A DNA stretch of 64,000 bases from NCBI RefSeq assembly GCF_003334335.1, contig NZ_QOWQ01000030.1; one strand, 5' to 3'. Shown here one piece after another: positions 3,025 through 3,351 of this stretch (its first letter is position 1; each line of letters begins with the position of its first letter). The DNA is from Escherichia coli (GTDB taxonomy: Bacteria; Pseudomonadota; Gammaproteobacteria; Enterobacterales; Enterobacteriaceae). The translations under genes were made by a program, and so were the position numbers. The notes beneath the pieces are model-generated. The model made no database searches. It saw nothing but the letters and a program-made list of their open reading frames with translations, and had not been told where the DNA came from.

Positions 3025-3351
3025 TTAATGGCGGTGCCCATGACCCCGGCCTTTTCCGCGATGATCGTCACGATCGCGCCAGCCTTCACGATAGCCACGC
3101 TCATACGCTTTACGCTTATCCCAGCCACGGTGGTAGCCATTATCATGACGCCACCAACGGTTTTTGCGCCACTCATAATTGCGATGCCAGTAGTCACGGT
3201 CGCGCCAGTGACCACCGTCCCAGTAATTACCGTAATGATCGCGATCGCCAATTTGTAATTTGATTGATGGCAGTAGGGTGATTTCACCTGCGTTTGCTGC
3301 AAGCGGGGTAAATGCCATCAGGGCGGCCGCCAGAAACAGTGACCTGAACAT
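3025..3351 (-). CDS. ypeC: Small secreted low-complexity protein YpeC (DUF2502-like), rich in Arg, Trp, His, Asp and Tyr
   Basis: 108-aa ORF with an N-terminal signal peptide ([21 protein letters not shown]) followed by repetitive W/R/D/H/Y segments. Confidence 0.8.

What the first reader, a model, noticed from the sequence alone, without database searches (positions are those of the whole stretch)
3025..3351. ypeC encodes a secreted, highly repetitive Arg/Trp/His/Asp/Tyr-rich mini-protein of unknown function
After the signal peptide the protein is almost entirely low-complexity (..[72 protein letters not shown]). The His-rich C-terminus and its position next to the Mn transporter gene suggest periplasmic metal binding or an envelope-stress role. 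The internal nucleotide repeats also generate several spurious overlapping ORFs on both strands.
Basis: inference. Interest (0 to 1): 0.3.

Follow-up and report, generated by a model that had tools for sequence, protein, structure and literature searches.

The report
YpeC, envelope-stress periplasmic mini-protein
This is the known E. coli gene ypeC, a small exported protein of unknown function built almost entirely from Arg, Trp, His, Asp, Tyr and Gly. Published data show cell-envelope and antibiotic stress regulators switch it on, and nothing but position links it to the manganese transporter next door.

Summary
The ORF at 3025-3351 (- strand) is real. It is E. coli ypeC, 108 aa, Pfam DUF2502, present in all 5426 complete E. 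coli genomes and under strong purifying selection (dN/dS 0.03-0.13).

It has a Sec signal peptide and a strong Shine-Dalgarno sequence. AlphaFold predicts a small folded core (about residues 27-71, pLDDT 79-91) and a disordered cationic, His-rich tail.

"Highly repetitive" is overstated. There are no tandem repeats, only WRDRD twice and a short-period aromatic pattern. The three overlapping ORFs are real but do not come from nucleotide repeats. In 72 of 73 codons (36-108) the second base is a purine, so three alternative frames cannot contain stop codons.

The envelope-stress idea is supported:
- An exact marbox that binds MarA and SoxS (published) is conserved across genera.
- Published data show 42-60x induction with the Rcs regulon and a 24x drop in an rcsB-disrupted strain.
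- The paralog yaaX and a Serratia DUF2502 gene are also Rcs-controlled.

The manganese-neighbour argument fails. mntH is convergent, has its own Fur and MntR operators, and ypeC has neither. His-richness of the tail is conserved across the family, so weak metal binding or pH sensing stays open.

The gene, family and regulators are already known; the function is not.

The parts
3025..3351 (-). ypeC coding sequence (108 codons plus stop), DUF2502 family
   Evidence: ORF list. RefSeq annotation 'DUF2502 domain-containing protein YpeC' in 5426 of 5426 complete E. coli genomes. Pfam PF10697, E=1e-23, model positions 1-90 of 90. dN/dS 0.03-0.13 against 8 genera. 3361 of 4974 differences fall at third codon positions.
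3289..3351 (-). Signal peptide, residues 1-21 ([21 protein letters not shown], predicted cleavage ANA|GE)
   Evidence: Read directly from the sequence. The n/h/c layout is conserved in all homologues aligned. No Cys, so no lipobox. The cleavage site is inferred from the -3/-1 rule and was not tested.
3136..3288 (-). Conserved core module, residues 22-72 ([33 protein letters not shown]...[10 protein letters not shown])
   Evidence: Family-wide invariants P28, G35, G41, Y43 and W44; near-invariants D38, D45, G46, W49, R50 and W55. AlphaFold pLDDT 79-91 over about residues 27-71 in two runs. Both runs give helix 52-58 and hairpin 59-62/65-68.
3028..3135 (-). Cationic, aromatic, His-rich tail, residues 73-108, predicted disordered
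   Evidence: pLDDT below 50 in both models. Still 85% amino-acid identity within Enterobacteriaceae. Pooled family composition is R 21%, G 15%, H 14%, D 12%, W 9%, Y 7%. His is a median 25% of the last 20 aa.
3359..3364 (-). Shine-Dalgarno AAGGAG, 8 nt before the ATG
   Evidence: Sequence. Conserved in the genera aligned.
3398..3403 (-). Candidate -10 hexamer TAATAT (conserved as TAnnAT). The inferred transcription start is near 3391.
   Evidence: Upstream alignment of 14 genera. The consensus promoter scan found no full sigma-70 site because the -35 is poor. The start site is inferred and was not measured.
3434..3441 (-). Conserved element TA(A/G)GAGTT, about 43-50 bp upstream of the inferred start. 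Possible RcsB half-site.
   Evidence: Invariant GAGT core across 14 genera. It matches only the left half of the published RcsB box, with 2-3 mismatches to the full box. The assignment is speculative.
3456..3470 (+). Marbox GCATTTTTTGCTAAA, backward relative to ypeC. It overlaps the yfeO stop codon.
   Evidence: Exact match to the published MarA (E. coli) and SoxS (Salmonella) site. Conserved in 13 of 14 genera even though the upstream gene differs.
2943..3302 (-). Overlapping stop-free frames. This ORF, together with 3004-3258 (+) and 3012-3263 (+), is a by-product of ypeC's codon composition and not a gene.
   Evidence: ORF list. The same three frames stay open for at least 70 codons in all 75 orthologues. 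The cause is a purine at codon position 2 in 72 of 73 codons.
2885..3024 (.). REP (BIME-like) palindromic elements filling the convergent mntH-ypeC gap
   Evidence: Inverted repeats I3, I6, I7 and I8. Sub-threshold Rfam naRNA4 (REP-derived) hits at 2892-3051. A median of 3 extra matching places per genome.

Best explanation
ypeC is a genuine, translated gene for a small protein exported through Sec into the periplasm. It belongs to the DUF2502 family.

It is transcribed from its own activator-dependent promoter. That promoter has a weak -35 and a conserved marbox about 70 bp upstream of the inferred start. Published data show the gene is switched on by MarA/SoxS and very strongly by the Rcs envelope-stress system.

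The mature 87-residue protein has two parts:
- a small folded module of about 45 residues, held together mainly by Trp, Tyr, Arg and Asp side chains, including a Trp-rich beta-hairpin;
- a disordered, strongly cationic tail rich in Arg, Gly, His, Asp and aromatic residues.

The mechanism I commit to is inferred, not shown. Under envelope damage, the protein coats or bridges anionic envelope material through Arg/aromatic contacts. Candidate targets are phospholipid or LPS head groups, peptidoglycan, or periplasmic glucans and capsule precursors. The His-rich tail raises the positive charge, and so the binding, when the periplasm acidifies or when divalent metal ions are bound.

Shown here or published: gene reality, the conserved module, the marbox, and stress induction. 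Predicted but not measured: export to the periplasm. Inferred: start site, fold details, ligand and physiological role.
For: Gene reality:
-.
- dN/dS 0.03-0.13 and third-position bias.

Export: a signal peptide conserved in every homologue.

Regulation:
- Exact marbox, conserved in 13 of 14 genera although the upstream gene changes.
- MarA and SoxS binding is published.
- 42-60x induction with the Rcs regulon and a 23.7x drop in an rcsB-disrupted strain.
- The paralog yaaX and Serratia SMDB11_2817 are Rcs-dependent.
- Induced by acid shift, multiple stresses and conjugation.

Architecture:
- Two independent AlphaFold runs give the same confident core and a floppy tail.
- The core motif is conserved down to 35% identity and is duplicated in some members.

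Chemistry: pI about 10, net charge +7.5 at pH 7 and +14 at pH 5.5, W 9%, no aliphatic residue in residues 36-108.

Distribution: the family is largely confined to Enterobacterales. From general knowledge, that is the order that has the Rcs system.
Against: - No ligand, localisation or phenotype data exist in what I could search.
- No canonical RcsB box lies upstream, so Rcs control could be indirect.
- There is no structural or sequence relative with a known function (one search returned only DUF2502 members). The binding mechanism therefore rests on composition alone.
- The overall AlphaFold score is modest (pTM 0.42-0.46).
- A few members occur in Deefgea and Jeongeupia. As far as I know these lack Rcs.
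- Some family tails are net negative (down to -12). That does not fit a purely cationic binder.
Confidence: 0.45

Rival explanations
1. YpeC is a periplasmic metal buffer or metallochaperone. The His-rich tail ([12 protein letters not shown]), perhaps with the Asp-rich DRD motifs, binds Zn, Ni, Cu or Mn and protects or supplies the envelope during stress.
For: - His-richness of the C-terminus is a family-wide trait although the sequence itself drifts. The median is 25% His in the last 20 aa, and 81% of members have at least 15%.
- One Pantoea homologue is labelled 'zinc ABC transporter substrate-binding protein' by a source. This is probably a composition-driven mislabel.
- ypeC has stayed next to mntH as far out as Yersiniaceae.
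Against: - No His, Cys or Met is invariant anywhere in the family. The invariant residues are P, G, G, Y and W.
- ypeC is convergent with mntH and lacks the Fur and MntR operators that are obvious in the mntH promoter.
- The known regulators are MarA/SoxS and Rcs, not metal sensors.
- The paralog YaaX is not near any metal gene.
- The synteny concerns a whole block, not the gene pair.
Confidence: 0.2
2. YpeC is a hydrophilin-like protectant. It would be a very hydrophilic, Gly-rich, largely disordered periplasmic protein that shields envelope proteins or membranes from aggregation during osmotic, acid or desiccation stress, without a specific ligand.
For: - GRAVY -2.1 and Gly 15%.
- Half of the mature chain is predicted disordered.
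- It is induced by several unrelated stresses and co-induced with spy, osmB, yjbJ and others.
Against: - Position-specific conservation is strong, even in the tail (85% identity).
- A confidently predicted folded core argues for a specific interaction surface rather than bulk solvation.
- Trp at 9% is atypical for hydrophilins (from memory of that class).
Confidence: 0.15
3. YpeC is a feedback or signalling component. It would bind an envelope sensor or its partners (for example RcsF/IgaA or a porin) and so tune the stress response that induces it.
For: It is among the most strongly Rcs-induced genes. Its family distribution largely coincides with that of Rcs (plus general knowledge). This is the same logic that applies to CpxP in the Cpx system.
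Against: There are no data for any interaction. Members exist in Deefgea and Jeongeupia. The tails are highly variable, whereas a fixed protein partner would be expected to constrain them.
Confidence: 0.07
4. The ORF is a compositional artefact or is not translated. The real feature would then be one of the overlapping frames or a non-coding element.
For: Four of the six frames are open across the region.
Against: - dN/dS is 0.03-0.13 in the ypeC frame, and 68% of substitutions fall at its third codon positions.
- There is a strong, conserved SD and ATG.
- The Pfam family is conserved down to 35% identity.
- The other open frames are fully explained by the purine at codon position 2.
Confidence: 0.01

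Closest known systems
YaaX, the E. coli paralog (DUF2502, PF10697)
   Same: Signal peptide, the same core ([30 protein letters not shown]..WW..HYEWR), and a His-rich tail. Reported in the RcsB regulon and induced by colicin M and by the LolCDE inhibitor.
   Different: About 50% identity. The tail is Pro/His-rich rather than Arg/Gly/aromatic. It sits next to thrABC/yaaA, not mntH. ypeC is induced more strongly (42-60x against 8-12x). Its function is equally unknown.
Serratia marcescens SMDB11_2817 (a DUF2502 gene used as an Rcs reporter)
   Same: Same family. Its promoter rises by several log10 in a gumB (igaA-like) mutant, and this requires rcsB.
   Different: It is from a different family of bacteria (Yersiniaceae). 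I did not examine its sequence or context here. The promoter also responds to ciprofloxacin independently of Rcs.
Small envelope proteins co-induced with the Rcs regulon (Spy, OsmB, YmgD/YmgG, Bdm, YcfJ)
   Same: Small proteins co-induced in the same experiments. Most are exported, from general knowledge.
   Different: There is no sequence or fold relationship. Those with a known function work as a chaperone (Spy) or belong to Gly-zipper families. YpeC has none of their motifs.
His-rich periplasmic metal-handling proteins (ZinT, ZraP, RcnB), recalled from general knowledge
   Same: Small and periplasmic, with His-rich stretches.
   Different: Those are controlled by metal-responsive regulators and have defined ligand residues. 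ypeC has no conserved His, Cys or Met and no Fur or MntR site. There is no sequence similarity: the Pfam scan listed only DUF2502 at E<=10.
Trp/Arg-rich cationic peptides and designed tryptophan-zipper hairpins (indolicidin, tritrpticin, trpzip), recalled from general knowledge
   Same: Arg plus Trp chemistry that binds anionic membranes. The predicted hairpin [10 protein letters not shown] resembles a Trp zipper.
   Different: YpeC is an endogenous periplasmic protein of 87 residues with a conserved fold and many Asp residues. The resemblance is in composition and working principle only, not in ancestry.

Membership tests
DUF2502 (Pfam PF10697) | Significant, full-length match to the family HMM | tested here: met
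   E=1e-23, score 83.8, residues 23-106 against model positions 1-90 of 90.
DUF2502 (Pfam PF10697) | Signal peptide followed by the core I-x-L-x-P-x-x-x-L-x-I-G-D-R-D-x-x-G-x-Y-W-D-G-x-x-W-R | tested here: met
   All invariant positions (P28, G35, G41, Y43, W44) are present.
mar/sox/rob regulon | Marbox upstream of the promoter | tested here: met
   GCATTTTTTGCTAAA at 3456-3470 is identical to the published site. It is conserved in 13 of 14 genera.
mar/sox/rob regulon | Binding by MarA/SoxS and activator-dependent transcription | not testable with these tools
   Published ChIP-seq, ChIP-exo and in-vitro binding ('+++'). I did not find data on a transcriptional effect on ypeC.
Rcs regulon | Expression depends on RcsB | not testable with these tools
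   Published: 23.7x lower in an rcsB-disrupted strain, and 42-60x higher together with the Rcs regulon.
Rcs regulon (direct target) | RcsB box TN(G/A)GAN4TC(T/C)NA in the promoter | tested here: not met
   No match with up to 1 mismatch upstream of ypeC. The conserved TA(A/G)GAGTT element is only a half-site, with 2-3 mismatches to the full box.
Periplasmic metal-binding protein / metallochaperone | Conserved ligand residues (His, Cys, Met) at fixed positions | tested here: not met
   No His, Cys or Met is invariant or nearly invariant in 34- and 77-sequence alignments.
Periplasmic metal-binding protein / metallochaperone | His-rich segment | tested here: met
   5 of the last 20 residues are His. 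The family median is 25%.
Periplasmic metal-binding protein / metallochaperone | Co-transcription or shared metal-responsive operator with a metal transporter | tested here: not met
   Convergent with mntH. The Fur match (15/19) and MntR match (16/16) lie only in the mntH promoter. ypeC's upstream region is at background.
Tandem-repeat protein | Head-to-tail repeated units at DNA or protein level | tested here: inconclusive
   DNA: none. Protein: short-period self-similarity at z of about 3.3, and WRDRD twice. Some distant homologues do carry two copies of the core motif.
Bacterial lipoprotein | Lipobox with Cys at +1 | tested here: not met
   There is no Cys in the protein.
Hydrophilins (criteria recalled from memory: Gly above 6%, very high hydrophilicity) | Composition thresholds | tested here: met
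   Gly 14.9%, GRAVY -2.12. This is a compositional label only; a protective function was not tested.

The most novel reading that the evidence does not exclude
DUF2502 could be a previously unrecognised kind of periplasmic domain. It would be a mini-fold with no aliphatic core, stabilised by Trp/Tyr-Arg stacking, joined to an Arg/Gly/His/aromatic 'sticker' tail. On envelope damage the protein would bind envelope polyanions or self-associate on them in a pH- or metal-switchable way. That would make it a dedicated Rcs/Mar effector that physically patches or reorganises the periplasm.
Probability: 0.15. Interest if true: 0.55.

Novelty: already known. Interest (0 to 1): 0.3.

Why it matters
ypeC and its paralog yaaX are among the strongest outputs of the Rcs envelope-stress response, and ypeC is a direct binding target of MarA and SoxS. 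Yet no function is known for any DUF2502 protein.

Most Rcs and Mar effectors that actually protect the envelope are still unidentified. A clear biochemical activity for this family would fill part of that gap, and it bears on intrinsic antibiotic tolerance.

The protein is also a neat biophysical case. A 73-residue stretch contains no aliphatic residue, yet half of it is predicted to fold.

For the scan itself, the value is mostly corrective. The gene is known. Adjacency to mntH is not functional evidence. The overlapping ORFs have a simple compositional cause.

Tried and rejected
- Tandem Repeats Finder at minimum score 30: nothing.
- NCBIfam: no family.
- PDB sequence search with the protein and with the family profile: nothing at E<=10.
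- Sigma-70 consensus scan: no full promoter.
- RcsB-box search: no canonical site.
- Fur and MntR scans of the ypeC upstream region: background only.
- A candidate 5'-UTR hairpin (GCCG-N4-CGGC, 3375-3386) was not supported by RNAalifold: 0 pairs, no covariation, and it is absent in Phytobacter.
- Rfam: only sub-threshold REP-derived naRNA4 hits.
- A first codon-order shuffle seemed to show that the three open frames were unusual, at 4.9% of shuffles. This was misleading, because the shuffle mixed the hydrophobic N-terminal codons into the biased region. The purine-at-position-2 rule explains the pattern fully.
- The idea that the His-rich end is REP-derived was rejected. The same tail is present in genera where mntH follows within about 40-110 bp of the ypeC match.

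Full report
**What is there**

The window is E. coli chromosome. The local gene order is nupC (108-1349, -), mntH (1646-2884, +), a REP cluster, ypeC (3025-3351, -), yfeO (3466-4722, -) and glk (4926-5891, +).

The reported ORF is exactly ypeC. It is 108 codons long, with an ATG at 3351 and AAGGAG 8 nt upstream. The 581-bp stretch that contains it matches in all 5426 complete E. coli genomes and is annotated 'DUF2502 domain-containing protein YpeC'. Pfam gives a full-length DUF2502 match at E=1e-23. NCBIfam and PDB sequence searches give nothing.

**Is it a real gene?**

Yes. Across 75 orthologous CDSs from other species and genera, 3361 of 4974 nucleotide differences fall at third codon positions of the ypeC frame. 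Pairwise dN/dS against Salmonella, Citrobacter, Enterobacter, Klebsiella, Kosakonia, Franconibacter, Buttiauxella and E. albertii is 0.03-0.13. The start codon and Shine-Dalgarno sequence are conserved.

**Composition and 'repetitiveness'**

The N-terminus has the Sec signal-peptide layout: MFR, a hydrophobic stretch, then ANA|GE. It has no Cys and no twin-Arg motif.

The mature 87 residues are R 18%, G 15%, D 11.5%, H 10%, W 9% and Y 8%. The pI is about 10, net charge is +7.5 at pH 7 and +14 at pH 5.5, and GRAVY is -2.1.

There is no tandem repeat in the DNA. The longest direct repeats are 16-18 nt, and one of them encodes WRDRD at residues 49-53 and 91-95. At protein level the best off-diagonal self-alignment scores 80 against 46 +/- 10 in shuffles. 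This reflects an aromatic residue every 4-6 positions rather than discrete units.

So the protein is strongly biased and weakly periodic, but it is not a repeat array.

**The overlapping ORFs**

They exist, but the cause is not repeats. Codons 36-108 carry a purine at position 2 in 72 of 73 cases. The residues are R, D, H, W, G, Y, K, E and N, with a single Ala. The next best such run anywhere in the 64-kb window is 24 codons, and the chance probability is 1e-23 to 1e-31.

With a purine fixed there, TAA/TAG/TGA cannot form in the +2 frame, and TTA/CTA/TCA (antisense stops) cannot form in two antisense frames. Consistently, exactly the same three alternative frames are open for at least 70 codons in all 75 orthologues.

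One side effect shows up in the databases. Of 170 database homologues with tails of at least 25 residues, 62 have tails outside the family's composition. Examples such as P0139, P0133 and P0195 look like frameshift chimeras that were not cut short by a stop.

**Family and architecture**

The family is small. Only 85 clusters at 50% identity exist among 1.84 billion representative proteins. A scan of one genome each from 100,044 species found 435 loci.

Members are mostly from Enterobacterales: Enterobacteriaceae, Erwiniaceae, Yersiniaceae and Hafniaceae. A few are from Deefgea and Jeongeupia.

The conserved part is the signal peptide plus the module x-I-x-L-x-P-x-x-x-L-x-I-G-D-R-D-x-x-G-x-Y-W-D-G-x-x-W-R-D-x-x-W-W. 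P28, G35, G41, Y43 and W44 are invariant. Some distant members carry the GxYWDGxxWR part twice.

Tails differ in sequence but share a composition: R 21%, G 15%, H 14%, D 12%, W 9% and Y 7%. His is a median 25% of the last 20 residues.

Two AlphaFold runs were made, one on the full length with 34 sequences and one on the mature protein with 77. They agree:
- Residues ~27-71 have pLDDT 79-91, with helix 52-58 and a beta-hairpin at 59-62/65-68 ([10 protein letters not shown]).
- Residues 72/73-108 are below 50.

No solved structure resembles the model. AFDB50 returns only DUF2502 entries.

Within Enterobacteriaceae the 'disordered' tail is almost as conserved as the core, at 85% against 88.5% amino-acid identity. 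It is therefore not free-drifting low complexity.

**Regulation**

Upstream of ypeC, on the + strand at 3456-3470, lies GCATTTTTTGCTAAA. This is letter for letter the site reported for MarA ChIP-seq in E. coli, with strong in-vitro binding. It is also the site for SoxS ChIP-seq in Salmonella, and ypeC is listed as an E. coli SoxS ChIP-exo target (PMC5684230, PMC10268841).

In most genera about 3 kb lies between yfeO and ypeC, and where I looked it holds ipdC and gpr. The upstream neighbour therefore differs from E. coli. Even so, the marbox, a TA(A/G)GAGTT element, a TAnnAT hexamer and the SD are all conserved.

I infer a -10 at 3398-3403, a start near 3391, a poor -35, and a backward marbox about 70 bp upstream. 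From memory, that is the class I arrangement. This is inference only; the consensus scan finds no complete sigma-70 promoter.

Published transcriptomes place ypeC among the most strongly induced genes when the Rcs system is triggered:
- 42-60x with a LolCDE inhibitor (PMC5105897).
- 23.7x down in an rcsB-disrupted O157 isolate (PMC5343319).

The paralog yaaX is in the RcsB regulon and is induced by colicin M. A Serratia DUF2502 promoter serves as an Rcs reporter.

ypeC is also up after acid shift, across multiple stresses, and in recipients during RP4 conjugation.

However, the published RcsB box TN(G/A)GAN4TC(T/C)NA (PMC7913699) is not present upstream of ypeC at up to 1 mismatch. The conserved element is only a half-site. 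Direct control by RcsB is therefore unproven.

**The manganese neighbour**

mntH and ypeC are convergent and separated by REP elements.

As a positive control, the mntH promoter holds the best Fur-box match in the whole window (15/19 at 1578) and a perfect MntR palindrome (1613-1632). The ypeC upstream region scores at background for both.

The adjacency is conserved as far as Nissabacter (Yersiniaceae), and also around a 38-43%-identical homologue (P0160) found on metagenome contigs. But it is always part of the block gpr-ypeC><mntH-nupC, and always convergent. YaaX sits beside thrABC/yaaA, and a Jeongeupia member sits beside a Na/H exchanger.

Adjacency is therefore inherited gene order, not evidence of a shared function.

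**Mechanism**

Shown or published: a real gene, a conserved module, MarA/SoxS binding and Rcs-linked induction. Export to the periplasm is predicted from the conserved signal peptide.

Inferred: a periplasmic stress protein whose cationic, aromatic surface binds anionic envelope material. The His-rich tail would add pH- or metal-dependent charge. I give this about one chance in three.

Metal buffering by the tail remains a live rival at about 0.2. Conserved His-richness favours it. Against it are the lack of any conserved ligand position and the absence of metal-responsive regulation.

The hydrophilin-like protectant and the Rcs-feedback roles are less likely. An artefactual ORF is excluded.

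**Novelty**

The gene, its family, its marbox and its stress induction are all already described. What this analysis adds:
- the two-part architecture;
- the family-wide compositional conservation of the tail;
- conservation of the promoter elements across genera;
- the negative tests for metal wiring;
- the codon-position explanation of the overlapping ORFs.

The function is still unknown. Interest is modest.

Noticed in passing
window 2885-3024 (hits extend to 3051): The convergent mntH-ypeC gap is filled with REP/BIME-type palindromes. They give sub-threshold Rfam naRNA4 hits and extra megablast places (a median of 3 places per genome in all). In other genera mntH follows ypeC much more closely.
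   Followed up: partly
window 1578-1596 and 1613-1632: The mntH promoter carries the best Fur-box match in the window (15/19) and a perfect MntR palindrome, AACATAGCAAAGGCTATGTT. I used them as positive controls.
   Followed up: partly
window about 1576-1665 (+); L001:4692-4781: RefSeq annotates a 29-aa small protein, YpeD, in the mntH leader. It overlaps the mntH start codon and lies over the Fur and MntR sites.
   Followed up: no
P0133, P0139, P0184, P0188, P0191, P0195 and others (62 of 170 homologues): Many database DUF2502 entries have a normal N-terminal core followed by an unrelated hydrophobic tail. These are probably frameshift or assembly errors that escape truncation, because three alternative frames of these genes contain no stop codons.
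   Followed up: partly
L002 (Rhizobium wenxiniae, 398-bp contig) and L055 (Chryseobacterium sp. 18061): Both records carry an enterobacterial ypeC: 100% identical to E. coli in L002, and with the full glk-yfeO...ypeC-mntH-nupC synteny in L055. They look like contamination or mislabelled assemblies.
   Followed up: no
L008-L081 (about 1800-6000) and L083, L088: Outside Escherichia, about 3 kb lies between yfeO and ypeC; in the two annotated loci (L083, L088) it holds a TPP-dependent decarboxylase (ipdC) and an aldo-keto reductase (gpr). In a few Citrobacter loci another ~5 kb separates ypeC from mntH.
   Followed up: partly
P0160, P0164, P0170, P0173, P0198; L083:5001-5402: Some distant homologues carry two copies of the GxRDxxGxYWDGxxWRDxxWW module. 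P0160 sits in the same syntenic slot as ypeC, so the module can duplicate in place.
   Followed up: partly
window 3375-3386 (- strand): A short GCCG-N4-CGGC stem lies in the inferred 5' UTR and recurs in most genera with variable loops. RNAalifold gave no supported structure, and Phytobacter lacks it.
   Followed up: yes
L001:2028-3138 and L001:9574-10820: In strain ER1709 a frameshifted IS421 transposase lies beyond nupC, and fryC is annotated as frameshifted. In the window, fryC (6458-7705) is an intact 415-aa ORF.
   Followed up: no
Foldseek hit A0A0B1RBG7 and P0216 (Pantoea): A 112-116-aa DUF2502 protein is labelled 'zinc ABC transporter substrate-binding protein' by one source. This is probably an annotation carried over from similarity between His-rich regions.
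   Followed up: no
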